DNA of 52,921 nt, from IMG/VR virus record IMGVR_UViG_3300010263_000121. One strand, written 5' to 3'. This stretch comes from a virus. Position 1 is the first letter of the stretch. Every line of letters starts with the position of its first letter. Positions 7,937 to 25,559 of this stretch are shown piece by piece. Made by a program: the position numbers and the translations under genes. The notes below the pieces were generated by a model, which was not told the DNA's origin, searched no databases, and was given only the letters and a program-made list of their open reading frames with translations.

Positions 7937-8818
7937 CTACTGACCCAGGATTCTCGCTCTAACTTCATCGGAAAAAGAGAATGGATCATAGCTTGCTGCC
8001 GCTTCTCTCTGCATGAAATCCTCTGTCCCGGGTAGGTATTCCGCAAGTGCGCTGTTCAACCACGTCTTACACAGCTTGATATGCCTCTTCTCCCGCCCTT
8101 CACGTTCCATCTGATTAGCATACCTTCGCGCCGCCTCAATTAGATCGTCGTGCTTAATCCCCAGTTTCCGGTCGGATACGATAGCTCTCCAGATTTCATA
8201 GGCTGCTGCTTTATCTTCTTTCCTGGGATAAGCATCCCAGAAGCGGTTGAACTCCTCCGGGTACTCCTTCTTCATCGCTCTCCTTAGGTTTGCTGTAGCC
8301 TTTCGCTCGCGTCCTGTTCGGATTGCACCTGCACTAGATACAGAATTATTGGTCTCATCTGGTAATGGTTGATCTGTAGTACTAGTTGTATCCGAAATTA
8401 CCGTATCCGGTAGAACCGTATCCGGTAATTTCGGACACGGAGCACGCTGGGCTTTTTCGCGTTCTTCCCTGCTTGGCGCAACTTCGATCTGCTCCTGAAT
8501 CACGTACACATTGCAGGAGAACTTCCCGTCTACCCGCTTCTGAATGACCTTGATGAAACCCCGTTCCTTGAGTTCTTCAAGATAGCTTGTGAAGGTGTCC
8601 TTGTTGATGTTCAGATCCCGGCATATCCTCGCCCGGCTCGGCCACGATGCCCTCCCTCCAAACTCCTCGTTGATACTAGCTCCGGCGATGCTGGAAAGAT
8701 AGCAGAACAGGCATTTTGCGCCGATGCTGATCTCGGGATTGCTCATCAGAAGAAACGGAGCCAGCCCATACCCCTTAGACAGCCACGACGTCTTACCAAA
8801 CTGAACACTCTCTCCCAC
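7937..8818 (-). CDS. Replication initiator / replisome-organizer-like protein (wHTH N-terminus, PDTV repeat linker)
   Basis: wHTH-like segment (ICRDLNINKDTFTSYLEELKERGFIKV), a PDTVLPDTVISDT linker typical of Firmicutes phage/plasmid Rep-organizer proteins, and a C-terminal FWDAYPRK segment. It shares this architecture with 10948..12216. Confidence 0.55.
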   Translation of the reverse strand: MGESVQFGKTSWLSKGYGLAPFLLMSNPEISIGAKCLFCYLSSIAGASINEEFGGRASWPSRARICRDLNINKDTFTSYLEELKERGFIKVIQKRVDGKFSCNVYVIQEQIEVAPSREEREKAQRAPCPKLPDTVLPDTVISDTTSTTDQPLPDETNNSVSSAGAIRTGRERKATANLRRAMKKEYPEEFNRFWDAYPRKEDKAAAYEIWRAIVSDRKLGIKHDDLIEAARRYANQMEREGREKRHIKLCKTWLNSALAEYLPGTEDFMQREAAASYDPFSFSDEVRARILGQ

Positions 8819-9284: not shown

Positions 9285-9480
9285 TTCCTTGACATACTCC
9301 CCATGGTTAAAACCAGGGGATTCTGGTATCAAACAAAACCAGCCTACTTATATAGGTCTTACAGTTTCTATCCCAAGAGTTGATGCCCCAACTCTATGAA
9401 TATTAGTCGCTGCATTTAGGTCTCTATCGTGCAAGATGCCACAATTCGGACATGTCCATTTTCTATCCCCGAGTGTTAGC
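9285..9480 (-). ncRNA. Predicted omega (right-end) RNA scaffold of TnpB; extent is a guess
   Basis: Inferred by analogy with ISDra2-type elements, where the guide RNA overlaps the tnpB 3' end and the right-end hairpin. Only the hairpin at 9299-9319 is directly visible. Confidence 0.3.
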
Positions 9481-10463
9481 TCTTCGTAGACAAACTCACA
9501 GGCAGAGCATGTTTTGCTTGAAGGATAGAATCTGGGTATTTCAATAACGGTTGAACCTGTTTTCGAGCATTGGTATTTGAGGATATTGACAAAGCTGCTA
9601 TGGCTTAAATCAGATATTTTTCTGCCCCATAGTTTTTGCATAGCCTTAATATTCAAGTCTTCGATACAAATTGTTGCATATTCGCCAGCTAGTTTTAATG
9701 CTAACTTGAAGTGGAAATCCCGCCTTTTGTCAGCTAAGCGCTTGTGAGCCTTTGCCAATTGCCTCTTTGCTTGCTTATAGTGATTGGAACCCTTTTGTTT
9801 TTTGGAAAGTTCTCGATTTAGTTTCGCAATCTGCCTCTGACTCTGCTTAAAAAACTCAGGAGATACAATATTCTTGCCATCTGATGCCGTGAGAAACATT
9901 TTTAAACCAAAATCATACCCGACGCTTTTACCTGTTCGTGGTAGAATTTCGTTGTTTGATGTCTCACAAACGACATAGATATACAAGTCCCCTAATGAGT
10001 CTCGCTTGACTGTTACAGTTTTTACTTTCCCTTCAATTTCACGGGACTTGTGGTATTTATAGGTTCTACCTCCAATTTTAATTCGGTTGTCTGAATACAG
10101 CTTATACCCAGCTTGCTTAAGAGTGAAGGATTTATACTTCTTCACCTTCTTAAAGGACGGTGGTGATGATTTAATCCCATGCTCCCGATTACGGAAAAAC
10201 AATTTGTATCCCTTATCTATGCGTTGGGCAATATCTTGAATAGCTTGCGAGCCAAGGGAGTTCCAATCCGAGTATTTTGGGAGTTTCTTAAGTTTAGTCA
10301 AGTGCTTCATCAACGCATAAACATTAAGACTCTTACCGTATAGTCGATAATATCGCTTGTGCAAGGCAATGCAATGGTTGTAGATTATCCCAGCAATATT
10401 GATTTGTCGCTCTAAATATCTATTCCGCTTGTGCTGATATAACTTGAATTTGTAGGTCTTCAT
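9348..10463 (-). CDS. tnpB: TnpB RNA-guided endonuclease (IS605 OrfB family)
   Basis: 371 aa. RuvC triad contexts GYDFGLK, CIEDLNIK and HDRDLNAATNI, a zinc finger CSACEF...CPNCG, and the typical N-terminus MKTYKFKLY. Confidence 0.9.
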   Translation of the reverse strand: MKTYKFKLYQHKRNRYLERQINIAGIIYNHCIALHKRYYRLYGKSLNVYALMKHLTKLKKLPKYSDWNSLGSQAIQDIAQRIDKGYKLFFRNREHGIKSSPPSFKKVKKYKSFTLKQAGYKLYSDNRIKIGGRTYKYHKSREIEGKVKTVTVKRDSLGDLYIYVVCETSNNEILPRTGKSVGYDFGLKMFLTASDGKNIVSPEFFKQSQRQIAKLNRELSKKQKGSNHYKQAKRQLAKAHKRLADKRRDFHFKLALKLAGEYATICIEDLNIKAMQKLWGRKISDLSHSSFVNILKYQCSKTGSTVIEIPRFYPSSKTCSACEFVYEELTLGDRKWTCPNCGILHDRDLNAATNIHRVGASTLGIETVRPI

Positions 10464-10947: not shown

Positions 10948-12216
10948 CTAACCTTGCATCCTCTCCCATTTCTCCCATTGCTCAGTCAAGGTATGGCGAA
11001 GAAGAAGCTCATGCTCTTTGAGCATATCCCGTACTTCCTCATCACGATAAATTTTGATCTCCCGAATTTTTTCCTCATAAGCACGTAAACGTCTTTTGAG
11101 TTCTGAATCCACATCATCAAAGGGCTTTTCAACAACCTTCTCCGCTCGTACCATTTCAGTCTCTTGGCCAAATAAGCTGCTAAAGTTATGTCCTCTGTCC
11201 TCATAAGTGAAATCATCACGCGTAAACTTGCCTAAATCATTCCTGCTTGTCCAATTATCACGATTCAAAAAGTGCTCATAACCTTTACGCTCCAAGAATT
11301 CAACCAGACGATATTTGTGCTTAGCTCTATAGCTTTTGAATAAATCCGCATAGTTCAGGATTGCCATAAATAGATCTTCAGCAGAAAAATCAGTTAAAGC
11401 CTCATTCCAGGCATCGATGATCCTCTGCTTTGTCCTATCCCCTAAACGATAGTGAGGGTTAACCTCTTGATTATTCCAGAATGAAATCAGATCATCAGCC
11501 GTTAACTTCTTAGTTAGCAAAGCTGAATAATCACGCTTGGCTTTCTTTTCCTTCTCTCGCTTAAGTTGTTCTTGATAGGCCTTCATAGCAATAGATGCAA
11601 AATCATCCTCTGGTTCTTCTTCTGTCTTTAAATCAAAAGAGGATTCTCTCTCCACCAATTCGTCAGAATTGGTTTCTCTTTCTTCTTCACTTGTAGCTGC
11701 TATCTCTGAAATGGGTGAGAGATCATTATTGTTTTGATCATTATTACTAAGATCAATATTATTAGTGTCGGGTTTTCCAGATACGGGTTTACCAGTTACG
11801 GAAAACCCGTTTCTGGGTTCTAGCTGGGATTTCGTATTTTCCCCCCTCTTTTTATCCAGTAACGGATTTTCCGTTTCTGGCTTTACGCTGGCTTTTTGCA
11901 GAAGTCTCTCCTGCGGCACTTCATAGACGATTGTTTCCTGATGAGAAAATTGTCCAGTCTCGGGATCCCTGATTTTTATCCGTTCTATGTAACCCTTCTG
12001 CTCTAGTTCTTTCAGAATAGAGTTCACTGAATCACGACCATTGGTTGCTCGTTTGACCAAATCAGCCACAATTACGGTCCAGTTATCAGGCTTACTAAGC
12101 AGGTAGGCCAATAATCCTTTTGCCTGCCAACTTAGATTATCATCATTAAGTGGTCTGTGGTCTATCATCACAAACGGATTTTCACGCTTACTGGTTCTGA
12201 CTATATTTTTACTCAC
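10948..12216 (-). CDS. rep: Plasmid/phage-type replication initiator (wHTH N-terminus), AT-rich paralog of 7937..8818
   Basis: 422 aa with a GTG start and a GAAAGGGG RBS. wHTH segment NSILKELEQKGYIERIKIRD and a PET/KPD-rich linker (GKPVSGKPDTNN). It lies next to the iteron array. Confidence 0.6.
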   Translation of the reverse strand: MSKNIVRTSKRENPFVMIDHRPLNDDNLSWQAKGLLAYLLSKPDNWTVIVADLVKRATNGRDSVNSILKELEQKGYIERIKIRDPETGQFSHQETIVYEVPQERLLQKASVKPETENPLLDKKRGENTKSQLEPRNGFSVTGKPVSGKPDTNNIDLSNNDQNNNDLSPISEIAATSEEERETNSDELVERESSFDLKTEEEPEDDFASIAMKAYQEQLKREKEKKAKRDYSALLTKKLTADDLISFWNNQEVNPHYRLGDRTKQRIIDAWNEALTDFSAEDLFMAILNYADLFKSYRAKHKYRLVEFLERKGYEHFLNRDNWTSRNDLGKFTRDDFTYEDRGHNFSSLFGQETEMVRAEKVVEKPFDDVDSELKRRLRAYEEKIREIKIYRDEEVRDMLKEHELLLRHTLTEQWEKWERMQG

Positions 12217-12303
12217 AAAAAAAGCCCCTTTCTACCGAAAGAGACCTCCCACACGAATAGCAAGATAACCCAATATCTTCCTTGTCCTTAAGTGACATAA
12301 AGG

Positions 12304-12333
12304 TTGACATGATGCCCATCCTCATGCTACTAT
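12304..12333 (+). promoter_or_regulatory. Near-consensus sigma-70-type promoter facing away from rep
   Basis: TTGACA (12304-12309), an 18-nt spacer, then TGcTACTAT (extended -10, 12325-12333). Confidence 0.5.
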
Positions 12334-12339
12334 AAAGCA

Positions 12340-12446
12340 AGAAAGATACTTTTCGTGAGGGCCTTACCCGTGTGCCTGCAAGCAGTTGGGGGAGGCCTCT
12401 TTCTTTTTCACGTTTTACTGAAGGGCCGCGAGGCCCTTCTTTTTTT
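12340..12446 (+). ncRNA. Candidate ~105-nt small RNA (possible rep countertranscript)
   Basis: The segment is bounded by the promoter at 12304-12333 and a strong plus-strand terminator at 12420-12446. No credible ORF lies within it. Confidence 0.35.
12420..12446 (+). terminator. Rho-independent terminator (plus strand)
   Basis: Stem gaagggcc / ggcccttc with loop gcga, followed by 7 T. Confidence 0.75.
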
Positions 12447-12544
12447 GTCTGATCGACCATCAACTTCTTTCGACATTGGGCCGCCATTACCTTCTTGAGA
12501 GCGTGCAAAATCCGCATGGCAAGCGCATTTCATGATATCAGGAA

Positions 12545-12671
12545 ATCAAGAAATCAATTTTGACAGCAAGACATCAAGAAATCAAGATTACAAGCAAACA
12601 ATATTTCAAGAAAACAATATTTCAAGAAAACAAGATGGCAAGAAATCAAGAGATCAAGAAAACAATATTTC
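12545..12671. repeat. Iteron-like repeat array (candidate replication origin)
   Basis: ATCAAGAAATCAA(G) occurs at 12545 and 12573, with a related CAAGAAATCAAGAGATCAAGAAA at about 12638. ACAATATTTCAAGAAA occurs twice in tandem at 12598-12629, with a third partial copy at 12661-12671. The array is AT-rich and non-coding. Confidence 0.7.
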
Positions 12672-12715
12672 TGGATAGTGCCGAGATTCACAAACATGGC
12701 CCTAATATGGCGTAA

Positions 12716-12748
12716 AGAAAGCCCGCCTTTTAGAATCGGCGGGCTGCC
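12716..12748 (-). terminator. Rho-independent terminator after the KAP NTPase gene
   Basis: Stem agcccgcc / ggcgggct. On the minus strand it is followed by TTTCTTT. Confidence 0.6.
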
Positions 12749-12826
12749 CCTTGGGTCATTTCATCCTAGAAAAACATAGTCGTCTGAAGCTGTTCATGCA
12801 AGTAAGTGCTTTCAACTAGTCAGAAG

Positions 12827-14662
12827 TCAAGGGGAAGAGGTCTTGTCTGCAGCCCGATTTCCTATGTCGTTCAGGAGCCTGATCAAGTCTTCAAAACGTT
12901 GCTTTCTCATCCTGTCGAGTTCATCGGAAGAAGCCACGAACTCTCTAAGATGATCCGCAATAGCTTTCATCGCCTCTCCCTCTTGGCATGTAGCACAACC
13001 ATTGAGTTTTACCGTCAAAATATACTCCATCCTCCATATTGCTCGATTATTGAAGTCAAAGAGCTTGCGGAAGAGTTCGTGTTCCCGCAGAGTAGAGAAC
13101 AATTGGCGTAGGTTTACATGGCGGATGGCCGTCCAGAAGGCCTCTTCGTCATCGCTCATCATGGTTTCCAACAGATGCTCTATCTTAGCCACAGCATTGC
13201 GAACTTCAGCCTCTTGCTTTAGCTCTCTTATCTTCTCGACCAATTGGCTGTATCCATCATCTTCCGCTGAGTTAGCCGACAAGGCACCTTCATCTAGTTC
13301 GAGAATATTGCTTGTTCGCTCAGCAGCCGCATCAACGCCTCTTTCGATAGTACCAAAAAAGTCTTCCGGAAGATTATCGATATACCGGCGTTCAGCGATC
13401 TCTTTCATCACCTTATATATTGATGGGTATAACCTAAGCTCATACAATCCGGCTGAAGCATATTCCAATACTTGTGATACCGCAGTCTCTAGAGTGTGTT
13501 GCTCAAGTTCCTTAAACCGCCACAGTTTCTCGAGCGACGTAGCATACTCAGGAGGGGATTCACGCTGGCTTTCTTCCAGTTCCGAGAGAAACTTCTGTCT
13601 GTTGAAGAGACCCTTGACTATTGAGTCGAAGACGCTATTGCAGTAATACCTACCCCATGAACTATCTATACCGTACTTCTCGCAGATCTCAACAATACGT
13701 GACTTATGCGGTCGCTTGTTCGGCTTCGAAAGAGCGTTATGAACCGACCATTTAAGCCACGCGCCATATGGGTCTTTGATCTCGTTTTCGTCTTCGACAG
13801 TAAGGCCACCACCGGAAAACTCTATTGCCAGAACCAATGAAATAGCCAGCAAGTATCTTAGGCGTTCTCTATACCTTGACTCATTACCTATGCATTGAAA
13901 GATGTTTCGAAAACACTCCAGCGCCAGCCCGAGATACCTAAGATTCGTTTGGCCACTCTTTGTGTAGATTCCGACTAACATATCAATATGCTCTTGCACA
14001 AACGTCATTAGCTCAGGCTTGTTGCTGCAGTGATCCGAAACGATGCTCTCAACCACTTGCCTTAGATCTGGCGAGAAAGAGACTATCCTCCGAATGACTT
14101 TTTCACGCATGCGCAAATAATTCGTTTGCCACTTGCTTTGCACTTCTTCTTCGTTTGCGATAAACACGACCTTTGCCCCATCTGGGTCAATGAACAGAGA
14201 ATAGATGGTCCCAAGCAGTTCGTTAATGTCAACCGATTCTGGCATTCGTTCCAAGTCGTCCACAAACAACGCATTGCGCGACCAATTTAGCTCTTCCAGC
14301 GTCTTCTGCTTGAAGAATCCCCCTGCTCTACCAGCGGCTTTCAACATCTTCTCTGCGCGAGGAATAGCCCCGATAAGCTCGATGACTGGCTCAATGAACG
14401 CGGGGCCCAACCACTGCTGACCTGCGAAGAGCTTACTATACAAGATCTGCCTAGTCACAGTGTTAATATCCTGTATCCCGTACAAAGAGATGTAAATAGG
14501 GGTCAATCCAAGTTCTTTTGCTAGGGGAATCATTGAATTGCGAACAAAATAAGTCTTTCCAGAACCCCACCGTCCATTCAGCAAAACCGCATAATCAGTC
14601 TTTGGGGTTTCTAGATATTGCCTCAAGGTCTCTTCGCATATCATGCAAATCCACCTCGCCAT
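12827..14662 (-). CDS. KAP-family P-loop NTPase
   Basis: 611 aa. Walker A GRWGSGKT (the KAP-type GxWGxGK[ST] signature), Walker B LFVDDLER, and a long helical C-terminal region. Confidence 0.7.
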   Translation of the reverse strand: MARWICMICEETLRQYLETPKTDYAVLLNGRWGSGKTYFVRNSMIPLAKELGLTPIYISLYGIQDINTVTRQILYSKLFAGQQWLGPAFIEPVIELIGAIPRAEKMLKAAGRAGGFFKQKTLEELNWSRNALFVDDLERMPESVDINELLGTIYSLFIDPDGAKVVFIANEEEVQSKWQTNYLRMREKVIRRIVSFSPDLRQVVESIVSDHCSNKPELMTFVQEHIDMLVGIYTKSGQTNLRYLGLALECFRNIFQCIGNESRYRERLRYLLAISLVLAIEFSGGGLTVEDENEIKDPYGAWLKWSVHNALSKPNKRPHKSRIVEICEKYGIDSSWGRYYCNSVFDSIVKGLFNRQKFLSELEESQRESPPEYATSLEKLWRFKELEQHTLETAVSQVLEYASAGLYELRLYPSIYKVMKEIAERRYIDNLPEDFFGTIERGVDAAAERTSNILELDEGALSANSAEDDGYSQLVEKIRELKQEAEVRNAVAKIEHLLETMMSDDEEAFWTAIRHVNLRQLFSTLREHELFRKLFDFNNRAIWRMEYILTVKLNGCATCQEGEAMKAIADHLREFVASSDELDRMRKQRFEDLIRLLNDIGNRAADKTSSP

Positions 14663-14731
14663 CAGTTGGATAGAGTCTGAGTACTAGGTTCATCATCTTA
14701 ACCCCAGAAGATGGAGCCGGGAGGATGCTTT

Positions 14732-15415
14732 CTATCTCTTCCATCCGTCTATATCGAGATAAGCAAAAAGCATCGAACACAACCTAAGTAAGACTTCTGC
14801 TGATTCTGAGCTGTCTTTAAGGGCAGAAACCATCTCGGTGAAGGATTCTTCATCCCGAAATCGGCTGAACACTGCGTGGAAGAACCAAATGGCGACATTC
14901 CAAAACTCGCCTTCGCGAATTCTCTTGGCTCGGGAGACATCCTCGAGGTAGGACATCATTTCCCTCATAGCAAGATAGGTCCGCTCGGCCACTGTATGGG
15001 TAACCATACCGCGCGCGTAGTAACTCGAGAGTGTCTTGAGCTCCTGAACCATACTCCGGACATCTAGATCGGGGGAGGGAATCTCCCTTGATGAACCGGT
15101 CTTCCGCAGCTCTTCATTTTCTGCCTGAAGTGCCGCGAGCTGCTCACTCAACCTGTCGATATCAGCCCGGAAACCGCTGTTCTCCTGCTCAAGCTGCTCA
15201 AGCTGGGAAAGAAGCTCAGCCTTCTCTTTGGTTAGCTCCTGGATCTTCTGGTTTTTCTTCTCGATCTCCACCATAAGCACGGCCTTTCCGGCATCCACAG
15301 GTTCAGCGCTGGGCTGATTCTCTGGTATGAGCCCCAACTCACTCAATCCCTCGTTGATCTGCTGTGAGTCTTTAATCAAGCGGGCGGCCAGTCCTTCGCG
15401 CTTCGCTGCACTCAC
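14732..15415 (-). CDS. Coiled-coil protein translationally coupled to ParA (partition adaptor or system component)
   Basis: 227 aa. A heptad-rich central part (IQELTKEKAELLSQLEQLEQENSGFRADIDRLSEQLAALQAENEELRK). The GTG start directly abuts the ParA stop codon. Confidence 0.4.
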   Translation of the reverse strand: MSAAKREGLAARLIKDSQQINEGLSELGLIPENQPSAEPVDAGKAVLMVEIEKKNQKIQELTKEKAELLSQLEQLEQENSGFRADIDRLSEQLAALQAENEELRKTGSSREIPSPDLDVRSMVQELKTLSSYYARGMVTHTVAERTYLAMREMMSYLEDVSRAKRIREGEFWNVAIWFFHAVFSRFRDEESFTEMVSALKDSSESAEVLLRLCSMLFAYLDIDGWKR

Positions 15416-16402
15416 TTAGACCGCCTCCGTTTCAACCGCCAAACCGAGGAGCTCCTTGGCGAGATCCATGAACTGCTTTGCAGCCTCACTGTTGGGATCG
15501 TACGCGCCGATCGGCTTATCATCAAACTGCGCTTCGCTTACCGCATTGAGCTTCTTGATGACGGTCTTCGCGAACGGATACTGGATCACTTCTGGGATGG
15601 TATTTATGAACTCTTTCGTGGTATTGGTGCGGTAGTCGGCCATGGTTATCACGAAGCGGTTTATCGTCAGGCGCTTGTTGATCTGGCGTACTGAACCAAT
15701 AGTCTTGAGGAGCAGCTTAACTCCTTCCAGGGAGAACTTGCTGACCGCGATGGGGATGAGGCAGGAATCCGCCGCCACCAGAGCGTTGATCGTAAGTAGG
15801 CCAAGCGAAGGAGGGCAGTCGATGAAAATATAGTCGTACTTAGCGAGATGGTCCTGTGATGCGAGCAGCGAGTTAAAGAGCACAGACTCCCGGCTCATCC
15901 GCATGATGAGCTCCACCTCCGCTTCGCTAAGCGCAATCGTGGCCGGCACTACACCGAATCCGAATTTGCTGTCCACAATCGCTTCGTGGATAGGAAACCC
16001 ATCGATCAAGACTTCCGTCATGGTTGCCGTAGCGATGGCTTCGGCGTTGATGCCAACACCCGTGGATGAGTTCGACTGCGGATCCATATCTAGCAGCAGT
16101 ACTTTCTTGCCGAGCTTCCCAAGAGCTTCGCTTAAGTTGATAGATAGCGTTGACTTGCCGACGCCACCCTTCTGGTTCACGATCGCTATAATCTCCGGGA
16201 GCTTCGATCCCTCGGTCGATTCGTTGCTCAGGGTATGTAAGTAAGCGTTGGCATCTTCGACCCGCACCCGCCATTGAGCCCCTACCTTAGTCGCCGGTAT
16301 AGTTCCGTTCGTTATCAGCTTATGGGCCGTATTGTAGTGAACCCGCAGGTATTTCGCTAAGGCAGCAACGCCGATGAGGTACTCTTCGTTTCCCATGGCC
16401 AC
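15416..16402 (-). CDS. parA: ParA/Soj-family ATPase with N-terminal excisionase/MerR-type HTH (type-Ia-like)
   Basis: Deviant Walker A NQKGGVGKST. The N-terminal HTH is LAKYLRVHYNTAHKLITNGTIPATKVGAQWRV. A likelier start is ATG 16396, with GAGGTG 5 nt upstream. Confidence 0.85.
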   Translation of the reverse strand: MAMGNEEYLIGVAALAKYLRVHYNTAHKLITNGTIPATKVGAQWRVRVEDANAYLHTLSNESTEGSKLPEIIAIVNQKGGVGKSTLSINLSEALGKLGKKVLLLDMDPQSNSSTGVGINAEAIATATMTEVLIDGFPIHEAIVDSKFGFGVVPATIALSEAEVELIMRMSRESVLFNSLLASQDHLAKYDYIFIDCPPSLGLLTINALVAADSCLIPIAVSKFSLEGVKLLLKTIGSVRQINKRLTINRFVITMADYRTNTTKEFINTIPEVIQYPFAKTVIKKLNAVSEAQFDDKPIGAYDPNSEAAKQFMDLAKELLGLAVETEAV

Positions 16403-16404
16403 AC

Positions 16405-16440
16405 CTCACATTCACATTTCACATCCGTTCACACAATCAC
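16405..16440. promoter_or_regulatory. Cluster of (T/C)TCACA direct repeats immediately upstream of parA (operator or centromere-like candidate)
   Basis: CTCACA at 16405, and TTCACA at 16411, 16418 and 16428, plus AATCAC at 16435. On the minus strand these read as TGTGAA repeats. Confidence 0.4.
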
Positions 16441-16533
16441 TTCTAGACACAACTGGGAAGTCCTGCAAGCAAGAAGAAAAAAGATAGGAAGATGGCGATA
16501 GGTGAGTCGCAAATGTCGGCCTCAAGATCACAC

Positions 16534-18057
16534 TCATGATCTAAGGAGCTTTACCCTCTCTAACCAGACGTAATAGTCTTGGACAGCCAGGTTCATACAC
16601 TCTCTTCGATTCCTGGACGACGTCTGCTCAGCATATCTCTTGTTGTAATACAAAGTGAAACTGTGAACAGCGGCAGCCAAACCCGAGCAACATGTCTGTA
16701 ATTCATGAAGCTCCGGCGGAGCATACCCAAGTTCACCCTCTCTAGTGTACACCTCTTCGATCTTAGGTATTAGGCTGTCCATCTTGTCAAAAAGCTCACC
16801 TTCGCTGATATCCTCATTTTGGAACTGGTTATAGATGGAAATAGCCTCTTCGGCTAAGGAGATTAACTCTGCGATTATGTCTCGACTCTGCGCAGCAAAA
16901 ACCTCTGCGGGGACCGCATGATTGTTCCTCAAATCTCTCAACGTCTCATAGTATGGATAGAGGGTAAAATGCAGTCCTTTATCCACAAAATCGTGTTGGT
17001 AGCATCTGTACCACCAAGTTTTGTCTTGCTGTTCATCGACCCATGTAACACGGCACAAGAAATGACCATGTATCATGTCCTCTTCGTCTCGGCCATAGTA
17101 TATCCAGATAATGTTGGCGGGTTTACCCCTCCAGCGTCTCTCCGAAATCTCATTCTTATGAACCTCTTCATAAAGCAGTCTGTTCTTTATGTCAGTAGAT
17201 ATATCCCCAATCTCGGAAATCGAAAACGGTTCCTTAAGAATGACCTTTGCGGAATATCGTTTTGCGCTGCTAGAGTTTGTTGGTTCAACGTCATAGATAA
17301 TGTACCGTTCCGTTTCTTCGAAAATCCGATTGCGACAATAACGAGTGTATTCCTCCACATCGAAGTAGACTGTACCTACCATACTTCTTCGGAAAACAGG
17401 ATGCTGCTGCCTATCTGGATTCCGTTTATTCCACAGGTCAAGGTAAAGAGAAACTAATCTGCAGATATCGTTTAGCGACTTTTTTCCATGTCGCACTATA
17501 TGCTTGTCTTCCAGAGCATCACACAGAAAAGCAGTAAACAAACTCATTTCTTTGCCGGGGTGCCCCCACGATAATTGGTCTGCTTTACTTGACGCCAGAA
17601 CAGCATATCCTTTTCCTACAAGCTCTTCCACAGCGTGATGGATATCAAGTGAGACAGAACGATCCAAGCTAAAGTCACCGGCCATGCAGCAGTCGAGAAC
17701 GATAATTTTGGTCTTAGCTCGTATTCTTTCAAGAGAACATATGATATCTTGGGCACTAACAATAGTATCACTAAACTGGAGATAGTAGCAGGCTTGGCCG
17801 CTGCCACCATGTCCTGAAAAGTACAACATGAAGATATCATCTTCGGCCACACGAGAACCCAAGTCGACCAGTTCATCAGAAAACAGCTTTGCATTAACTG
17901 TTCCCGCTTCTCCCAAGGAAGCAATGTTTTCTGGTCGTACTCTCAGGCCACTCTCCAAGGCGCGTCTCATTGCAATGATATCATTGCGGCAGAATGGCAG
18001 ATTATAGTTCTTCGGCCAATAATTACTGACACCAACAAGAAAAGCCCATATTGCCAT
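16534..18057 (-). CDS. Caspase-like (peptidase C14 fold) protein with an uncharacterised C-terminal domain
   Basis: 507 aa. His/Cys dyad contexts YFSGHGG and VLDCCMAG lie in the N-terminal ~230 aa. The remaining ~270 aa have no motif I recognise. Confidence 0.65.
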   Translation of the reverse strand: MAIWAFLVGVSNYWPKNYNLPFCRNDIIAMRRALESGLRVRPENIASLGEAGTVNAKLFSDELVDLGSRVAEDDIFMLYFSGHGGSGQACYYLQFSDTIVSAQDIICSLERIRAKTKIIVLDCCMAGDFSLDRSVSLDIHHAVEELVGKGYAVLASSKADQLSWGHPGKEMSLFTAFLCDALEDKHIVRHGKKSLNDICRLVSLYLDLWNKRNPDRQQHPVFRRSMVGTVYFDVEEYTRYCRNRIFEETERYIIYDVEPTNSSSAKRYSAKVILKEPFSISEIGDISTDIKNRLLYEEVHKNEISERRWRGKPANIIWIYYGRDEEDMIHGHFLCRVTWVDEQQDKTWWYRCYQHDFVDKGLHFTLYPYYETLRDLRNNHAVPAEVFAAQSRDIIAELISLAEEAISIYNQFQNEDISEGELFDKMDSLIPKIEEVYTREGELGYAPPELHELQTCCSGLAAAVHSFTLYYNKRYAEQTSSRNRRECMNLAVQDYYVWLERVKLLRS

Positions 18058-18118: not shown

Positions 18119-18583
18119 TCAACTCGAATGGTTATCGCCTCTCGCCATCATCTCACCTCGATAAGCACGTGTATCAAGTTTTCGAAGAATCCGCTTGAGT
18201 TCTCTGGCCGGGTTCTCCTTTAGCCGACATTCCCATACGCGTATTACTGTCCAGCCAAGCCTTCTGAGCTGTGTAGATACACGCCGATCCCTCCGCTTAT
18301 TGCGCGCGATTTTACCAGACCAATACGCGCAATTCGACTTAGGAATATGCCCATCATGGCAGTGAGGACAGCCATGCCAAAAGCACCCATCGACAAAGAC
18401 AGCTACCTTAGCTTCTGGGAAGGAGAAATCTGGTCTGCCAGGAAGGCTCGGATCATGCTCTTGCCAATGGCTATATCCAGCCTCTTCAAGCATACTTCGC
18501 AATTTTAACTCGGTACTTTTTGCCCCGACACTCCTAATGCGAGACATGACAAGTGACCGCTTTTCCTTATCAAAGACGTCCAT
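18119..18583 (-). CDS. vsr: Very short patch repair endonuclease
   Basis: 154 aa with SRIRS..TELKLRS, GRPDF and FVDGCFWHGC motifs. It is adjacent to a C5-MTase and REase pair. Confidence 0.9.
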   Translation of the reverse strand: MDVFDKEKRSLVMSRIRSVGAKSTELKLRSMLEEAGYSHWQEHDPSLPGRPDFSFPEAKVAVFVDGCFWHGCPHCHDGHIPKSNCAYWSGKIARNKRRDRRVSTQLRRLGWTVIRVWECRLKENPARELKRILRKLDTRAYRGEMMARGDNHSS

Positions 18584-18585
18584 AG

Positions 18586-19446
18586 TTACACAGCCAAGTC
18601 GAAAGGCAGATCGCTGATATCTCTAAGCCGTCTGCCTTCAATTAGTGTTTGCAGCATCTCATGCTGGTCACGAACACCCGGATTTGCGTGGCTCAGTTCA
18701 TCAAGGGCTTCCTCAAGCTCATACAGAGCAAAATGATATACGCAGTCCAAATCGCCAGTTCCCAAGGCAAGAGATGCTATCCTCATTGGCAACGGTTCAG
18801 CCGTTACAGCAACAATATGAGGGCTGTTCCCTTTTCGATTCCGGATTAAATTCAGCGCTTCAGTTCTGGTGTTCTGTGCTCGATCAGAGCGCATCGTCCA
18901 TTTACAGGATATGCTTGCGTGTAAGATCGGCACGGGATCACCAGAACGATTGACGCGCCGTAACGGTGTATGCGTAGCAATAAACGGTGTATCTCCCTCA
19001 ACGCCAATATCCTCATCAGCTACGGGGATGCGGCACACCACGATGTCCGGCTTAATTATGTAGTCTGGACCCAGAGTGGCCATCAATTCTCTGCGGGTGT
19101 TGAGGATCTCGTTCAACTCGGCCAAATGCCGATACTGATCGAAATCCGATATCGAACGCTCAGTGCTAAATATCCACGGGCCTGGTCTTAGCCGGTTCAG
19201 CAACCTAAACGATCGCTCAAGATATTCCTTGGTTATGGTTCCAAAAAGGGCCCCAGCTGTTTGAGCAGATGGTGGCGTGGCGCAATGGGGGCCTCCAATC
19301 TTGCTTGCTAACCTTGCAGAGATCTGGCGGCTCGATTCACTAGACCGATCGGCTATATTGACGACACCGTCACGAACAGACAAAAGGCGTTGAGATATCT
19401 CTCTATGGTATTGCTGCCGCAAAGTGTTCATCTCGTTCAGAACCAT
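18586..19446 (-). CDS. Type II restriction endonuclease, NgoMIV/Cfr10I family (CCGG-core recognition predicted)
   Basis: IIKPDIVV (the PD element) and ISCKWTMRSDRAQN, which contains the S-x-K catalytic element and the R-S-D-R recognition motif described for NgoMIV-family enzymes. It sits between the MTase and Vsr. Confidence 0.7.
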   Translation of the reverse strand: MVLNEMNTLRQQYHREISQRLLSVRDGVVNIADRSSESSRQISARLASKIGGPHCATPPSAQTAGALFGTITKEYLERSFRLLNRLRPGPWIFSTERSISDFDQYRHLAELNEILNTRRELMATLGPDYIIKPDIVVCRIPVADEDIGVEGDTPFIATHTPLRRVNRSGDPVPILHASISCKWTMRSDRAQNTRTEALNLIRNRKGNSPHIVAVTAEPLPMRIASLALGTGDLDCVYHFALYELEEALDELSHANPGVRDQHEMLQTLIEGRRLRDISDLPFDLAV

Positions 19447-20524
19447 TTCCTATATTCTCCTTTCGCTCCTGGTTAAGCGCCTGCATAATGGACTTTGCCA
19501 GAGCATTGGCAACCACAGGACACACTGCTTCCGACACCTGACGGACCTGCGCAGAGATATTCCCCTTGAGGACGTAGTCCTTAGGAAATGCCTGAAGAAG
19601 CATTGCTTCATATATGCTCAACCGCCGGTGTCCGTTTGGGTGCACATGCACTTCCCGGTGGCCGTATGCAACCGTGTACGAAGGCCGATCCCAATCGAGG
19701 ATCTTAAATGACTTTCCTCCCATGCGCTTACTCAAACCATTGCTGAACTTAGGCGACCGCGGCACCAAGCACCAGTGATTAGGATGGACAGGAAATGTAT
19801 CAGGATTAAGCCCTTTTGCATTGTAGACTGGTTCAGGTAGACCCCATATGACATCTCTTACCGTTTTGCGCGGCACTAATGGATCTGGAACAGGAAACCT
19901 GAACTCGATATCAGGGTACTTCTCCTTGTTAAAACCCACAACAAACACTCTTGGCCTTATCTGAGCTACTCCGAAGTCTTGTGCATCGAGTGAACCCTGA
20001 AACAGTCGAAAGCCAGCTTCTTCGAACATTGCCTCAAACTTCTTGAACTTAGCAATATGCGAAGCTGACATCAGGCCAGGAACATTCTCAAACAGAAAAA
20101 AGTCAAGCCCGACTCTTTCCCGAAGCCCAGCAACGATTCTGGCATAATGCTCTGGCAATTTATGCCTTGGATCTTCGTCAGTAGAGTATACATTAGCGTA
20201 ACTAAACGATTGACAAGGAGGCCCCCCGATTACGCCGACAACATCGTATGGGCCAGCAGGCAGCGCTTCCGCAAGAATCGACTCTACACTAACCACGCTC
20301 AAATCCCGAATGCGTGCTACCGGGTTTTCGGGTCGATTGTAGTTATATGTCTCTACACAAACTGGATCGATGTCAGCTGCATAGAGGATGCTAGCGCCAA
20401 CCATCTCAAACCCGAGGTCCAGCCCACCAGGCCCAGAAAACAAGCTATAGCAGCCCATCTGAATAGAATCATATCCAAGTTCATAGGTACAGCGCTTTCT
20501 GTTGCGGTGATACATCTCTAACAC
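19403..20524 (-). CDS. DNA (cytosine-5)-methyltransferase, cognate to the adjacent REase
   Basis: FSGPGGLDLGF (I), GGPPCQSFS (IV), ENVPGL (VI), QIRPRVF (VIII). Confidence 0.9.
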   Translation of the reverse strand: MLEMYHRNRKRCTYELGYDSIQMGCYSLFSGPGGLDLGFEMVGASILYAADIDPVCVETYNYNRPENPVARIRDLSVVSVESILAEALPAGPYDVVGVIGGPPCQSFSYANVYSTDEDPRHKLPEHYARIVAGLRERVGLDFFLFENVPGLMSASHIAKFKKFEAMFEEAGFRLFQGSLDAQDFGVAQIRPRVFVVGFNKEKYPDIEFRFPVPDPLVPRKTVRDVIWGLPEPVYNAKGLNPDTFPVHPNHWCLVPRSPKFSNGLSKRMGGKSFKILDWDRPSYTVAYGHREVHVHPNGHRRLSIYEAMLLQAFPKDYVLKGNISAQVRQVSEAVCPVVANALAKSIMQALNQERKENIGNGSERDEHFAAAIP

Positions 20525-20834: not shown

Positions 20835-21701
20835 TTAAATAGGCAGATAGCGACTTGACGTGTCATCTGGTCTAACGTGAACATACTTCGAAGTCGTGGC
20901 CAGGGAAGCGTGTCCGAGCTGCGCCTGCACAAGATGGATGGGTGCACCGCGATCCAATGCGTGCGTCGCGTGACTATGGCGCATGAAGTGCGGGCTGACG
21001 TCTTTCTTGATTCCCGCTCGCTTCGCTGCCTCTTTGACAATAGCCCACATCCTGCACGTAGAGAGCGGATTTCCTTTCTGAGAGACCCAAACAGGATCAT
21101 CAGGCTGCCAGTCTTCTGGCCTGATGTCCTCTAAAAGCTCAAGTGTCTCCTTGGTGAGCTTGATAAACCGATTCTTGCCGCCTTTACCGTGCACAGTTAG
21201 GACCCCATTATTTATGTCTTTCCAGCACATTTTATGGGCCTCTTCGACCCTGACTGCGGTGGAGTAGAGGAATCTAATCAACACCTTGTCTCGAAGCTTA
21301 GGGGTATATTCAATGAGCTTAAAGACCTCTGTCTCGGTCAGGATGCGGTTTGACAGCTCATTGGGGATCTTAACGCTTTCCAGAGCGGCACCCACGTTCG
21401 CCACAGTAAACCCGGCCCTGTATGCAAACGCGAGCAGCGACTTGACTGCAGCGAGCTTCCGCGCCTGAGTTGCCTTTGCCAACCCCTGCAGGCTGTTCAG
21501 ATACTCGACCAGATCAGGAAGCGTAATCTCTTTGAGATGTTTGCCGCCGATGAAGGCCAAGAATTGCTGAATGTCATAGCGGTAGACCCTCTGCGTCTGT
21601 CTGGATTTCCGAGACAACCACAGTTCGATTATCCTGTCGTTGGATGCATTCAGCCTCGGCTGAAGATACATCGCGATACCCTGCTGGAGTTCGATTGCCA
21701 C
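20835..21701 (-). CDS. int: Tyrosine recombinase (phage integrase / XerC-D-like)
   Basis: 288 aa with an N-terminal SAM-like core-binding domain. Catalytic contexts are VRVEEA (R), HFMRHSHAT (HxxR) and GHASLATTSKYVH (H..Y). The start is GTG with a GGAGG RBS. Confidence 0.9.
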   Translation of the reverse strand: MAIELQQGIAMYLQPRLNASNDRIIELWLSRKSRQTQRVYRYDIQQFLAFIGGKHLKEITLPDLVEYLNSLQGLAKATQARKLAAVKSLLAFAYRAGFTVANVGAALESVKIPNELSNRILTETEVFKLIEYTPKLRDKVLIRFLYSTAVRVEEAHKMCWKDINNGVLTVHGKGGKNRFIKLTKETLELLEDIRPEDWQPDDPVWVSQKGNPLSTCRMWAIVKEAAKRAGIKKDVSPHFMRHSHATHALDRGAPIHLVQAQLGHASLATTSKYVHVRPDDTSSRYLPI

Positions 21702-24872: not shown

Positions 24873-25286
24873 TTATCCAGCTTTCCTTGCGCTCTTCAGA
24901 TAAGCCCTGAAAAGCCCCTGAGGATCGATCTTGAAGTCCATACACCCCTGAAGGCAGACATCCAAGTAGCCCTTCGAAGGCTCCGCTTCCTTCCCTTTGG
25001 TCAAGATATAGGTCATGGCCGTAAGACCATCAGGGAAGGTGATGAAGTGCTTTTCGTACCATCCCGGATATCCCTCATAGCGGTCTAGCATCTTCTCGTC
25101 AAAATCCGAGATAAGCCAGAGCCCGCCTCTTACGACCCCTTTCGGATTCCTCACTATCGTTAAGACCCGTCTGAACTGAAGCTCCCAGCCCGGAAGATCG
25201 CGCGCTCCCAAAGGCACCGCATCAGGGCACCGGTTAGACATCTGTTCCATATTAAGGTTCGATCCATAGGCAAAGTAGTATTTCAC
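24873..25286 (-). CDS. Gamma-glutamylcyclotransferase-like (AIG2/GGCT fold) protein
   Basis: The N-terminus YFAYGSNLNMEQMSNRCP is the GGCT-family signature. 137 aa. Confidence 0.75.
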   Translation of the reverse strand: MKYYFAYGSNLNMEQMSNRCPDAVPLGARDLPGWELQFRRVLTIVRNPKGVVRGGLWLISDFDEKMLDRYEGYPGWYEKHFITFPDGLTAMTYILTKGKEAEPSKGYLDVCLQGCMDFKIDPQGLFRAYLKSARKAG

Positions 25287-25288
25287 TG

Positions 25289-25549: not shown

Positions 25550-25559
25550 GAGAGGCAGG

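What the first reader, a model, noticed from the sequence alone, without database searches (positions are those of the whole stretch)
12827..18057. KAP NTPase, coiled-coil protein, HTH-ParA ATPase and caspase-like protease cluster: candidate uncharacterised conflict system
Four same-strand genes lie between the R-M system and the replicon:
- A caspase-fold protein (His/Cys dyad SGHG and DCCMAG) with a ~270-aa C-terminal domain I cannot assign.
- An HTH-ParA ATPase.
- A 227-aa coiled-coil protein whose start abuts the parA stop.
- A 611-aa KAP-type P-loop NTPase (GRWGSGKT).

KAP/STAND-like NTPases and caspase-like proteases are recurrent parts of NTP-dependent bacterial conflict systems, and the location beside an R-M system in a mobile element fits a defence island. 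I know of no named defence system with this composition. The conservative alternative is that parA plus the coiled-coil gene is simply the partition cassette, and that the KAP NTPase and the caspase are independent single-gene morons.
Basis: partly seen in the sequence, partly recalled or inferred. Interest (0 to 1): 0.75.

Follow-up and report, generated by a model that had tools for sequence, protein, structure and literature searches.

The report
Partition cassette flanked by two defence genes
The four genes are real but do not form one system: two are the plasmid-partition cassette of a phage-plasmid, and the KAP ATPase and the caspase-like protease are two unrelated stand-alone cargo genes, probably anti-phage; the protease carries an unmodelled C-terminal domain that other bacteria fuse to TIR or nuclease domains instead.

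Summary
All four minus-strand ORFs and their motifs are present as described. Comparative data do not support a four-gene system.

- **Partition backbone.** In sister elements (Rep 98% identical), HTH-ParA, the coiled-coil gene, an 8-bp phased repeat array and Rep are conserved in that order. The slot upstream of parA instead holds R-M systems, ApeA-HEPN, AbiJ or a helicase. The slot after the coiled-coil gene is empty or holds a 152-aa ORF.
- **No co-localisation.** None of 62 genomic loci of the caspase family has a relative of this KAP, ParA or coiled-coil protein within 10 kb. None of 80 viral loci of KAP relatives has a caspase, ParA or coiled-coil gene.
- **KAP.** It matches PADLOC PDC-S49, an untested single-gene defence candidate, over its full length (E 2e-59).
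- **Caspase protein.** It belongs to a widespread ~510-aa Bacillota family with no conserved neighbour.
- **C-terminal module.** The 270-aa C-terminal module folds confidently (pLDDT 94). It has no Pfam or PDB match. Elsewhere it is fused to TIR, DUF4365, Mrr-like or LmuA-N-like domains. This effector swapping suggests a self-contained effector-sensor immune protein.

The caspase C-terminal module is the only moderately novel element.

The parts
16534..18057 (-). Caspase-CTD protein (507 aa). Residues 1-232 are the caspase (Peptidase_C14) domain with H83/C124. Residues 236-507 (nt 16537-17352) are a conserved unmodelled C-terminal module: an alpha/beta subdomain followed by a helical bundle.
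   Evidence: Pfam. Invariant dyad. AF2 model pLDDT 87.6 with caspase/MALT1 fold matches at E 1e-10. CTD alone pLDDT 93.8 with no PDB match. Family and effector swapping.
16397..16468 (-). parA promoter/operator region conserved in sister elements, with TGTGAAn repeats at 16406-16424. It marks the left edge of the backbone; sequence upstream of it, including the caspase gene, is not shared.
   Evidence: Comparison of sequence upstream of ParA in the window and in L164, L165 and L168, all of which carry the TGTGAAATGTGA repeats; L170 and L172 share only its start (GGA[CA]TTCCCAAATGTGGAT) within the 200 nt examined, because their parA is called about 45 nt further upstream. Tandem repeat row.
15416..16402 (-). 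HTH_17-ParA ATPase (328 aa as listed; probably 326 aa from the ATG at 16396). Carries the KGGVGKS deviant Walker A.
   Evidence: Pfam AAA_31 1e-54 and HTH_17 1.6e-9. phrog_164 ParA-like partition protein 4e-60. 76-84% identical in sister elements.
14732..15415 (-). 227-aa coiled-coil partner of ParA. It has an invariant basic N-terminal peptide (MSxxKREGLAA), a central coiled coil and a helical C-terminal domain. Its start abuts the parA stop.
   Evidence: In L164-L168 and L170-L172 it lies directly after an intact HTH-ParA gene (in L169 that gene is called in two pieces), and a Rep gene lies downstream in all nine.
12827..14662 (-). KAP-type P-loop NTPase (611 aa as listed; probably 605 aa from the ATG at 14644). 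Matches PADLOC PDC-S49 and phrog_4740. It lies on a roughly 2-kb cargo segment (about 12696-14731) absent from sister elements.
   Evidence: PADLOC PDLC05031 at E 2.3e-59 over residues 10-589. phrog_4740 at 7e-49. Walker A/B invariant. Absent between the coiled-coil gene and Rep in L164-L172.
12712..12745 (-). Terminator-like hairpin after the KAP gene: 8-bp stem AGCCCGCC/GGCGGGCT, 10-nt loop, T-rich tail.
   Evidence: Read directly from the sequence. Missed by the scan because the loop exceeds 8 nt.
12537..12680 (.). Array of 8-bp phased repeats: 10 TCTTG and 3 TATTG cores in one register on the gene strand. Candidate centromere-like site of the ParA/coiled-coil module.
   Evidence: A homologous array lies at the same place in L164-L172 with mainly TATTG cores.
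12225..12410 (-). Conserved leader upstream of rep that folds into a long hairpin.
   Evidence: MFE -72.1 kcal/mol, z -5.6. Nearly identical in L168-L172. No Rfam family.
10948..12216 (-). Replication initiator (winged-helix N-terminus). This is the downstream end of the backbone module.
   Evidence: phrog_4707 and phrog_428 replication initiation protein. 98% identical in L168-L172.
18119..20524 (-). Context: Vsr, NgoMIV-type REase and C5 MTase. This is other cargo in the same integrase-to-parA hotspot.
20835..21701 (-). Context: tyrosine recombinase that bounds the cargo hotspot on the far side. The same 288-aa gene bounds it in L164 and L165.

Best explanation
The interval holds three independent units on a circular phage-plasmid of about 52.8 kb.

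(1) Partition module (backbone). It consists of HTH-ParA, a translationally coupled coiled-coil partner and a phased 8-bp repeat array, and it sits next to the Rep gene. By inference, the partner's invariant basic N-terminal peptide stimulates the ParA ATPase. The partner, and/or the ParA HTH, is inferred to bind the repeat array as a centromere.

(2) Caspase-CTD protein. This is a self-contained cargo gene in the integrase-to-parA defence hotspot. By inference, its conserved C-terminal module senses an infection cue and releases or oligomerises the N-terminal His/Cys protease. That would cleave host or phage proteins and abort infection.

(3) KAP NTPase. This is a separate single-gene cargo (PADLOC PDC-S49) inserted between the coiled-coil gene and the repeat array. 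By inference it is an NTP-dependent anti-phage protein whose C-terminal half is the functional module.

Shown here: gene content, synteny, independence of the three units, and domain modularity. Inferred: every biochemical activity and any defence phenotype.
For: **Element type.** The window has a 123-nt terminal direct repeat, which indicates a circular assembly. It encodes terminase, major head protein, tape measure and tail proteins, plus Rep and ParA.

**Backbone.**
- The coiled-coil homologs P0142 and P0143 lie directly after an HTH_17-ParA gene (called in two pieces in L169), with a Rep gene downstream, in all nine loci L164-L172.
- Identity to the window is 98% for Rep, 81-84% for ParA and 50% for the coiled-coil protein in L168-L172.
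- The parA upstream region, with TGTGAAn repeats, is conserved from about 75 nt before the start. Sequence beyond that diverges.

**Variable slots.**
- Upstream of parA, the sister elements carry ApeA-HEPN with R-M genes, AbiJ with a HinfI R-M, HaeII, an AlwI R-M, or a DEAD helicase.
- After the coiled-coil gene they carry a 152-aa ORF or nothing, never a KAP.

**No linkage.**
- Across 79 caspase loci (62 full-length), tblastn and HMM searches find no relative of this KAP, ParA or coiled-coil protein within 10 kb.
- The caspase family has no conserved neighbour; the best neighbour cluster occurs in 14 of 62 loci and is a generic ABC ATPase.
- Across 80 viral KAP loci there is no caspase, ParA or coiled-coil gene. 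By my count, the KAP gene directly follows an integrase in 16 of them.
- hhalign finds no shared domain between KAP and caspase or between the coiled-coil protein and caspase.

**KAP.**
- It is a full-length PDC-S49 match.
- PDC systems are untested candidates predicted by guilt-by-embedding (10.1101/2024.01.29.577857).
- KAP NTPases fused to unknown C-terminal regions gave phage protection in E. faecalis (PMC13552941).
- The closest KAP relative, P0124, follows a type I R-M operon.

**Caspase-CTD.**
- A profile of the CTD finds 523 cluster representatives.
- Of the top 150, 91 are caspase fusions and 20 carry other N-termini. These are TIR_2 (1e-20), DUF4365 (3e-37), Mrr_cat-like, an LmuA-N-like group and two singletons.
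- Twelve loci with a CTD gene, four of them TIR fusions and one a DUF4365 fusion, have no recurrent neighbour.
Against: - No function was measured for any gene.
- Two of about 48 caspase-family loci examined (L050, L017) do have a KAP-type NTPase within two genes. These are PifA-like proteins that share only the P-loop with the window KAP.
- The coiled-coil protein has no recognisable DNA-binding domain, so its centromere-binding role is only inferred.
- The repeat cores differ by a single base between the window and its relatives (TCTTG against TATTG). The argument that the array tracks ParA/coiled-coil rather than Rep is therefore weak.
- ParA scores below the NCBIfam ParA_partition equivalog cut-off (109.8 against 180).
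- Neighbours of the caspase family are only modestly rich in recognisable defence genes.
- Only nine sister loci were available, and several are near-identical to each other.
Confidence: 0.8

Rival explanations
1. All four genes form one NTP-dependent conflict system. In this reading the KAP NTPase is the sensor or switch, the caspase is the effector, and ParA and the coiled-coil protein are accessory parts.
For: The genes share a strand and are close together, next to an R-M system on a mobile element. NTPase-plus-caspase pairings are a known theme in conflict systems (background knowledge). ParA gives a weak partial hit to PADLOC PDC-M28B at E 3e-7, confined to the P-loop region.
Against: There is no co-localisation in 79 caspase loci or 80 KAP loci. 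Sister elements keep ParA and the coiled-coil gene without either KAP or caspase. parA has its own conserved promoter region and the KAP gene has its own terminator-like hairpin. No adaptor domain is shared.
Confidence: 0.03
2. KAP and the caspase-CTD protein are a two-component NTPase-effector pair that happens to be split by the partition cassette.
For: Two caspase-family loci (L050, L017) have a KAP-type NTPase within two genes.
Against: Those KAPs are PifA-like and unrelated to the window KAP beyond the P-loop (blastp E 0.025 over 23 residues). In L050 the two genes are divergently oriented. Neighbours of the caspase family include other defence genes at the same frequency: Gabija 2, GmrSD 2 and NsnA 2, which is what defence-island co-location would give. 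None of 80 KAP loci has a caspase. The NCBIfam caspase_w_EACC1 score is 79.5, below the cut-off of 140.
Confidence: 0.05
3. The caspase-CTD protein is not an immune protein. It would instead be a regulated housekeeping or developmental protease (orthocaspase-like), or a phage life-cycle factor carried as a passenger.
For: Most family members sit in chromosomes without an obvious mobile-element context. Recognisable defence genes are a minority of its neighbours. PADLOC has no full-length model for it.
Against: The constant CTD is joined to interchangeable caspase, TIR and PD-(D/E)xK-type nuclease N-termini. That is the pattern of conflict systems rather than housekeeping enzymes. In this element family the slot it occupies otherwise holds R-M, ApeA-HEPN and AbiJ genes. 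Its distribution is patchy and its neighbourhoods are variable.
Confidence: 0.2
4. The ParA/coiled-coil pair is not a DNA-partition system. It would be a positioning or regulatory module for something else, and the repeat array would be Rep iterons or origin DNA.
For: The coiled-coil protein lacks any ParB, RHH or other DNA-binding signature. The array lies just upstream of the rep leader. ParA is below the NCBIfam equivalog cut-off.
Against: The order ParA, coiled-coil gene, array, Rep is conserved even where Rep is replaced by an unrelated initiator (L164; 29% identity over 105 residues). The array core differs between the window and L168-L172 although Rep is 98% identical. phrog_164 ParA-like partition protein matches at 4e-60. 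Gene coupling and a conserved basic N-terminal peptide are typical of ParA partners (the significance of this peptide rests on background knowledge).
Confidence: 0.12

Closest known systems
PADLOC PDC-S49 (single-gene phage defence candidate) / phrog_4740
   Same: The KAP protein matches over its full length: E 2.3e-59, residues 10-589 against model positions 10-603 of 624, plus two further PDC-S49 models. It also matches phrog_4740 over its full length. It stands alone, often next to integrases or R-M systems.
   Different: It is at most about 32% identical (best local alignment) to any other protein found apart from near-identical copies of itself. PDC-S49 itself has never been tested experimentally, and no paper in the searchable library mentions it.
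KAP P-loop NTPase anti-phage proteins (PifA of the F plasmid; EF_KAP and gut-metagenome KAP fusions, PMC13552941)
   Same: An N-terminal KAP-type P-loop with intact Walker A/B, followed by a long C-terminal region with no assigned domain. It is a single gene carried on mobile elements.
   Different: There is no PifA match. No sequence comparison with the tested proteins was possible, because no supplement was held. Only one borderline hydrophobic segment (residues 271-289) was found, rather than the transmembrane helices described for EF_KAP.
Type I (ParA Walker-type) plasmid and phage-plasmid partition cassettes, including ParAs with an N-terminal HTH (P1 ParA, F SopA) and centromeres built of short contiguous repeats (pSM19035 omega heptads, parC of R1); comparison from background knowledge
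   Same: A deviant Walker A ParA with an N-terminal HTH, a small translationally coupled partner with a basic N-terminal peptide, and an adjacent array of short phased repeats next to the replicon.
   Different: The partner is a coiled-coil protein with no ParB, RHH or other known centromere-binding fold. Only four homolog clusters were found in 5.8 billion proteins. The 8-bp repeat unit has not been described, as far as I could check.
Caspase-like effectors of bacterial immunity (type IV Thoeris caspase-like protease, gasdermin-activating proteases, CHAT/Craspase, EACC1-associated caspases)
   Same: A caspase fold with a His/Cys dyad and a location in a defence hotspot.
   Different: No TIR, gasdermin, CRISPR or NTPase partner is conserved next to it. 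The caspase_w_EACC1 score is below its cut-off. The PADLOC 'caspase' model matches only residues 1-159 at E 9e-11. The regulatory module is a different, unmodelled 270-aa domain.
Short-pAgo partner proteins (effector-APAZ: TIR, SIR2, DUF4365/DREN, Mrr)
   Same: A similar menu of N-terminal effectors (TIR, DUF4365, Mrr-like) is joined to one constant C-terminal module. The DUF4365 N-terminus of P0240 matches the PADLOC model Aga_REase-PNTD1-PNTD2 over model positions 4-115.
   Different: The match stops at the nuclease domain. No Argonaute-like or other partner gene recurs. Foldseek against the PDB gives nothing below E 0.02 for the CTD. The caspase is the dominant effector here.

Membership tests
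Multi-gene NTP-dependent conflict system (NTPase plus caspase effector) | Conserved genomic linkage of the NTPase and the effector across lineages | tested here: not met
   None of 79 caspase loci has a relative of this KAP, and none of 80 KAP loci has a caspase. Two loci carry unrelated PifA-like KAPs.
Multi-gene NTP-dependent conflict system (NTPase plus caspase effector) | Shared effector-associated adaptor domain (EAD/EACC-type) between the components | tested here: not met
   hhalign of KAP against caspase gives probability 0.1%, and coiled-coil protein against caspase gives 0.2%. NCBIfam caspase_w_EACC1 scores 79.5 bits, below the cut-off of 140.
Multi-gene NTP-dependent conflict system (NTPase plus caspase effector) | Components organised as one operon | tested here: not met
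   The caspase and KAP genes are separated by the ParA/coiled-coil cassette, which has its own conserved promoter region. A terminator-like hairpin follows the KAP gene. Transcription itself was not measured.
PADLOC PDC-S49 | Full-length match to the PDC-S49 HMMs | tested here: met
   PDLC05031 at E 2.3e-59 (residues 10-589 against 10-603 of 624), PDLC05029 at 3e-50 and PDLC05030 at 7e-39.
PADLOC PDC-S49 | Single gene with no obligatory partner | tested here: met
   None of the window's other three proteins recurs near KAP relatives in 80 viral loci, 16 of which lie directly after an integrase by my count; a general search for some other recurrent neighbour was not made. P0124 sits beside a type I R-M system.
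PADLOC PDC-S49 | Demonstrated anti-phage activity | not testable with these tools
   PDC systems are described as untested candidates (10.1101/2024.01.29.577857).
KAP family P-loop NTPase (Pfam PF07693) | Pfam gathering score reached, with Walker A and B intact | tested here: met
   37.2 bits against a cut-off of 20, aligned only over residues 11-42. G30, G33, G35, K36, T37, D135 and D136 are invariant.
KAP family P-loop NTPase (Pfam PF07693) | Transmembrane helices associated with the NTPase domain | tested here: inconclusive
   One hydrophobic 19-mer at residues 271-289 (Kyte-Doolittle 1.88) and none between Walker A and B. No dedicated TM predictor was available.
Type I ParA partition system | Deviant Walker A ParA/MinD-type ATPase | tested here: met
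   KGGVGKS is present. AAA_31 1e-54 and CbiA 2e-22; phrog_164 4e-60. The NCBIfam ParA_partition equivalog scores 109.8, below its cut-off of 180.
Type I ParA partition system | Adjacent, coupled partner gene conserved with parA | tested here: met
   Stop and start codons abut. The same pairing occurs in all nine sister loci.
Type I ParA partition system | Partner is a recognisable centromere-binding protein (ParB HTH or RHH) | tested here: not met
   Only generic coiled-coil hits were found in Pfam, NCBIfam, PHROGs and PADLOC.
Type I ParA partition system | Cis-acting centromere of repeats next to the operon | tested here: inconclusive
   A phased 8-bp array at 12537-12680 is conserved in position in the relatives. 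Binding was not tested.
Caspase/metacaspase fold (Peptidase_C14) | Pfam gathering score, His-Cys dyad and caspase fold | tested here: met
   57.7 bits against a cut-off of 21.4. H83 and C124 are invariant. Foldseek matches MALT1, caspase-9 and metacaspase at E 1e-10 to 1e-7.
Type IV Thoeris (TIR protein plus caspase-like effector) | Adjacent TIR-domain gene | tested here: not met
   The window neighbours are Vsr and ParA. No conserved neighbour exists in 62 loci.
Short pAgo effector-APAZ partner | Adjacent short Argonaute gene and an APAZ-fold C-terminal domain | tested here: not met
   No recurrent neighbour was found. The CTD model has no PDB match below E 0.02. The PADLOC Aga_REase model aligns only to the nuclease part of P0240.

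The most novel reading that the evidence does not exclude
The caspase-CTD protein is the commonest form of an undescribed family of single-polypeptide immune proteins. In this family a structurally novel C-terminal module of about 270 aa (an alpha/beta subdomain plus a helical bundle, with no Pfam or PDB match) acts as the infection sensor. It is coupled to interchangeable effectors: a caspase protease, a TIR domain, DUF4365 or Mrr-like nucleases, or an LmuA-N-like domain.
Probability: 0.45. Interest if true: 0.6.

Novelty: new variant of a known kind. Interest (0 to 1): 0.35.

Why it matters
As posed, the finding would have added a new multi-gene immune system. The evidence shows it is gene adjacency in a cargo hotspot around a partition cassette. 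That is ordinary, and it is a useful caution against reading systems from proximity on mobile elements.

Three things remain of value:
- **A defence hotspot.** The phage-plasmid lineage has a clearly delimited hotspot between the integrase and parA, plus a second insertion slot between the partition operon and its repeat array.
- **A testable PDC-S49 exemplar.** The KAP gene is a natural, phage-borne example of the untested PDC-S49 candidate.
- **A candidate effector-sensor family.** The caspase family has hundreds of members. Its constant C-terminal module is joined to swappable caspase, TIR and nuclease domains, and it is absent from the Pfam, NCBIfam, PADLOC and PDB libraries searched here. 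If this is confirmed, it would add a new sensor domain and a caspase-based single-gene defence to the bacterial immune repertoire.

Tried and rejected
- **Megablast against PLSDB.** Searching 12.5-18.2 kb found no match, so no cultured plasmid relative is known.
- **ParA tblastn against phages and plasmids.** It gave only generic 35-45% ParA/Soj hits and no close module.
- **Rfam on the whole window.** No family matched.
- **Literature search for 'PDC-S49'.** No papers were found.
- **Supplements of the KAP paper.** None are held, so the window KAP could not be compared with the tested KAP proteins.
- **Full-length caspase model against the PDB.** It returned only the caspase domain. I therefore modelled the CTD alone, and it has no significant match.
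- **CTD against Pfam at E<=1 and against PDB sequences.** Only noise was returned.
- **APAZ-like reading of the CTD.** The effector menu prompted it. I rejected it for lack of a pAgo neighbour and of any structural or HMM match.
- **EACC1/EAD adaptor reading.** Rejected.
- **The 102-aa ORF at 12209-12517.** I consider it spurious. It overlaps the conserved rep leader hairpin and a GC-rich hairpin with a T-run.
- **The consensus promoter/terminator scan.** It was uninformative: 11 promoter-like sites against 7.9 expected from shuffles.

Full report
**1. Observation**

- KAP NTPase, 12827-14662 (611 aa).
- Coiled-coil protein, 14732-15415 (227 aa).
- HTH-ParA, 15416-16402 (328 aa).
- Caspase protein, 16534-18057 (507 aa).

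Pfam confirms the domains: KAP_NTPase, HTH_17 plus AAA_31/CbiA/ParA, and Peptidase_C14. The 227-aa protein gives only generic coiled-coil hits.

The quoted motifs exist and are conserved. Walker A G30-T37 and Walker B D135/D136 are invariant in the KAP alignment. H83 of SGHG and C124 of DCCMAG are invariant in the caspase alignment.

Public gene calls suggest slightly shorter versions of two genes. The KAP would start at the ATG at 14644 (605 aa), behind a GAGGTGG ribosome-binding site. ParA would start at the ATG at 16396 (326 aa).

The flanks are as stated. On one side lie Vsr, an NgoMIV-type REase and a C5 MTase. On the other lies a replication initiator.

**2. What the element is**

- The window carries a 123-nt terminal direct repeat, the signature of a circular assembly.
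- The same contig of about 52.85 kb occurs in many metagenome samples.
- It encodes terminase, major head protein, tape measure and tail proteins.
- It also encodes Rep, ParA and a tyrosine recombinase.

I read it as a tailed phage that is maintained as a plasmid, that is, a phage-plasmid. The protein relatives point to a Bacillota host. No cultured plasmid or phage is close.

**3. The ParA/coiled-coil pair is backbone**

The coiled-coil protein has only four homolog clusters in the large protein database. Nine loci encode P0142 or P0143 (L164-L172). In all nine the gene lies directly after an HTH_17-ParA gene (called in two pieces in L169), with start and stop abutting or overlapping. Further downstream lies a Rep gene.

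Identity to the window in L168-L172 is 98% for Rep, 81-84% for ParA and 50% for the coiled-coil protein.

The partner's N-terminal peptide MSxxKREGLAA+LI is invariant, while the coiled coil varies. From background knowledge, a conserved basic N-terminal peptide is typical of proteins that stimulate a ParA ATPase.

An array of 8-bp phased repeats lies between the pair and the rep leader.
- In the window it spans 12537-12680, with 10 TCTTG and 3 TATTG cores in a single register.
- A homologous array lies at the same place in the relatives, dominated by TATTG.
- Rep is 98% identical while the core differs, and the array persists in L164, where Rep is an unrelated initiator.
- I therefore favour a centromere-like site for ParA/coiled-coil over Rep iterons. 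This is an inference from a one-base difference and is not strong.

The region about 75 nt upstream of parA contains TGTGAAn repeats and is shared by the window and by L164, L165 and L168; L170 and L172 share its start within the 200 nt examined. Sequence further upstream is unrelated. In four of the sister elements it ends in a terminator-like hairpin that belongs to the cargo.

**4. The caspase and KAP genes occupy two different variable slots**

The slot upstream of parA holds different cargo in each sister element:
- L164: ApeA-HEPN with two R-M gene sets.
- L165: AbiJ with a HinfI R-M.
- L170 and L171: a HaeII REase.
- L172: an AlwI R-M.
- L169: a DEAD/ResIII helicase.

In the window this slot holds the NgoMIV-type R-M, Vsr and the caspase gene. 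It is a defence hotspot, bounded by the tyrosine recombinase and the parA promoter.

The slot between the coiled-coil gene and the array is about 130 nt of spacer in L168-L172. In L164-L167 it holds a 152-aa ORF with a duplicated array. Only the window lineage has a roughly 2-kb segment there (about 12696-14731) carrying the KAP gene and its own terminator-like hairpin.

**5. Direct tests of co-localisation**

Caspase side:
- A genome-wide scan returned 79 loci. Of these, 62 carry full-length caspase-family genes, in Clostridia, Bacilli and others.
- Neither tblastn nor a profile built from the KAP alignment found a relative of the window KAP within 10 kb of any of them. tblastn also found no ParA or coiled-coil gene there.
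- Clustering all neighbours gave no conserved partner. The best cluster occurs in 14 of 62 loci and is a generic ABC ATPase, followed by serine recombinases and response regulators.

KAP side:
- 80 viral contigs encode KAP relatives. None has a caspase, ParA or coiled-coil gene.
- By my count, the KAP gene directly follows a tyrosine integrase in 16 of them, which is a typical prophage moron position.

Profile-profile comparison finds no shared adaptor domain between KAP and caspase, or between the coiled-coil protein and caspase.

One caveat remains. Among 138 close neighbours of caspase-family genes, two are KAP-type NTPases, in L050 and L017. They are PifA-like and share only the P-loop with the window KAP. 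In L050 the gene is divergently oriented. Gabija, GmrSD and NsnA occur at the same frequency. I read this as co-location in defence islands.

**6. The KAP protein**

- It is a full-length match to three PADLOC PDC-S49 models, the best at E 2.3e-59, and to phrog_4740.
- PDC systems are 145 untested candidates predicted because they are embedded in BREX, DISARM or type I R-M loci (10.1101/2024.01.29.577857).
- In keeping with that, the closest relative P0124 lies just after a type I R-M operon.
- A 2026 study showed that several KAP NTPases fused to unknown C-terminal regions protect E. faecalis from phages. Protection depended on Walker B and on the C-terminal region (PMC13552941).
- The window protein has this layout. 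It could not be compared with the tested proteins.

**7. The caspase protein**

- It belongs to a well-conserved ~510-aa family, 37-54% identical across Bacillota.
- The AF2 model is confident (pLDDT 87.6). Its N-terminal half matches MALT1, caspase-9 and metacaspases.
- The C-terminal 272 residues modelled alone give pLDDT 93.8. They form an alpha/beta subdomain followed by a bundle of long helices.
- This CTD has no significant structural match in the PDB (best E 0.024), no Pfam family and no PDB sequence relative.

A profile of the CTD searched against 1.84 billion representatives found 523 proteins. Of the 150 listed:
- 91 are caspase fusions.
- 39 are fragments.
- 20 have other N-termini, in at least five groups.

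The five groups are TIR_2 (E 1e-20), DUF4365 (E 3e-37), Mrr_cat-like (weak), a group that includes an LmuA-N-like domain (E 4.5e-18), and singletons. The CTD is matched over its whole length in these proteins. It keeps the family's invariant residues, including the KR motif, the TxW motif and the C-terminal NR.

Twelve metagenome loci with a CTD gene, four of them TIR fusions and one a DUF4365 fusion, again show no recurrent neighbour. They do contain scattered R-M and toxin-antitoxin genes.

A constant module joined to interchangeable toxic effectors is the usual signature of a self-contained effector-sensor immune protein. That conclusion is an inference, and no activity was measured. The effector menu resembles that of APAZ partners of short Argonautes. 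However, there is no Argonaute neighbour and no structural or profile match to support homology.

**8. Verdict**

The interval is a partition cassette flanked by two independent cargo genes:
- The KAP is a new member of a known but untested candidate family.
- The partition module is a variant of a known kind with an unusual coiled-coil partner.
- The caspase-CTD family is the most interesting part. It appears to be an unmodelled single-protein effector-sensor family with a structurally novel constant domain.

Overall interest is modest at 0.35. The novel reading for the caspase-CTD family has a probability of about 0.45.

Noticed in passing
window 12225-12410 (minus strand): The roughly 190 nt directly upstream of the rep start fold into one long imperfect hairpin (-72 kcal/mol, z -5.6). 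They are almost identical in L168-L172. No Rfam family matches. This could be a rep leader, an antisense-RNA target or origin DNA. The 102-aa ORF listed at 12209-12517 overlaps it and is probably spurious.
   Followed up: partly
window 12537-12680; L164 8750-8860 and 9670-9815: An array of strictly 8-bp phased T-rich repeats (TCTTG/TATTG cores). In L164-L167 the array is duplicated on both sides of an inserted 152-aa ORF. This suggests the array itself is a recombination or insertion site for cargo.
   Followed up: partly
window 9348-10463 (minus strand): A TnpB/IS605 OrfB gene (OrfB_IS605 plus the Cas12f1-like TNB domain) lies between Rep and the DnaD-like replication gene (7937-8818). It is absent at that position in L168 and L171, so it is a recent insertion. 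No omega-RNA search was done.
   Followed up: no
window 1-123 and 52799-52921: A 123-nt exact terminal direct repeat, indicating a circular assembly of about 52.8 kb.
   Followed up: yes
window 24873-26348 (minus strand): Adjacent Amidoligase_2 (25560-26348) and GGACT/AIG2-like (24873-25286) genes. This pairing is known from phage-borne peptide-ligase/cyclotransferase systems. An IS3-type transposase (26428-27306) lies next to them.
   Followed up: no
window 27653-28579 (plus strand): A 308-aa protein with a delta-endotoxin C-terminal (Endotoxin_C2) domain, according to the precomputed Pfam annotation of the identical contig. This is unusual on a phage. It may be a carbohydrate-binding or receptor-binding protein.
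   Followed up: no
window 39557-40036: A 90-nt tandem repeat (5.3 copies, 75% matches) inside the tape-measure gene (37807-41238).
   Followed up: no
window 4475-5764 (minus strand): A ParB_N domain fused to an N6/N4 DNA methyltransferase (phrog_498, phrog_620). It is a ParB-like protein unrelated to the ParA/coiled-coil cassette. The same fusion is present in the sister elements L164-L167.
   Followed up: no
L229-L283 (metagenome loci): The TIR domain plus helical linker of the TIR-CTD proteins (query residues 1-177) also occurs with other, unrelated C-terminal regions in many metagenome contigs. Both halves of these proteins are therefore shuffled.
   Followed up: no
L095, L117, L132, L133, L135, L137, L140, L146, L148-L151, L161 and others (IMG/VR): By my count, in 16 of the 80 viral loci fetched, a KAP NTPase gene lies within about 100 nt downstream of a tyrosine integrase on the same strand. 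This is a recurrent integrase-KAP arrangement at prophage ends.
   Followed up: partly
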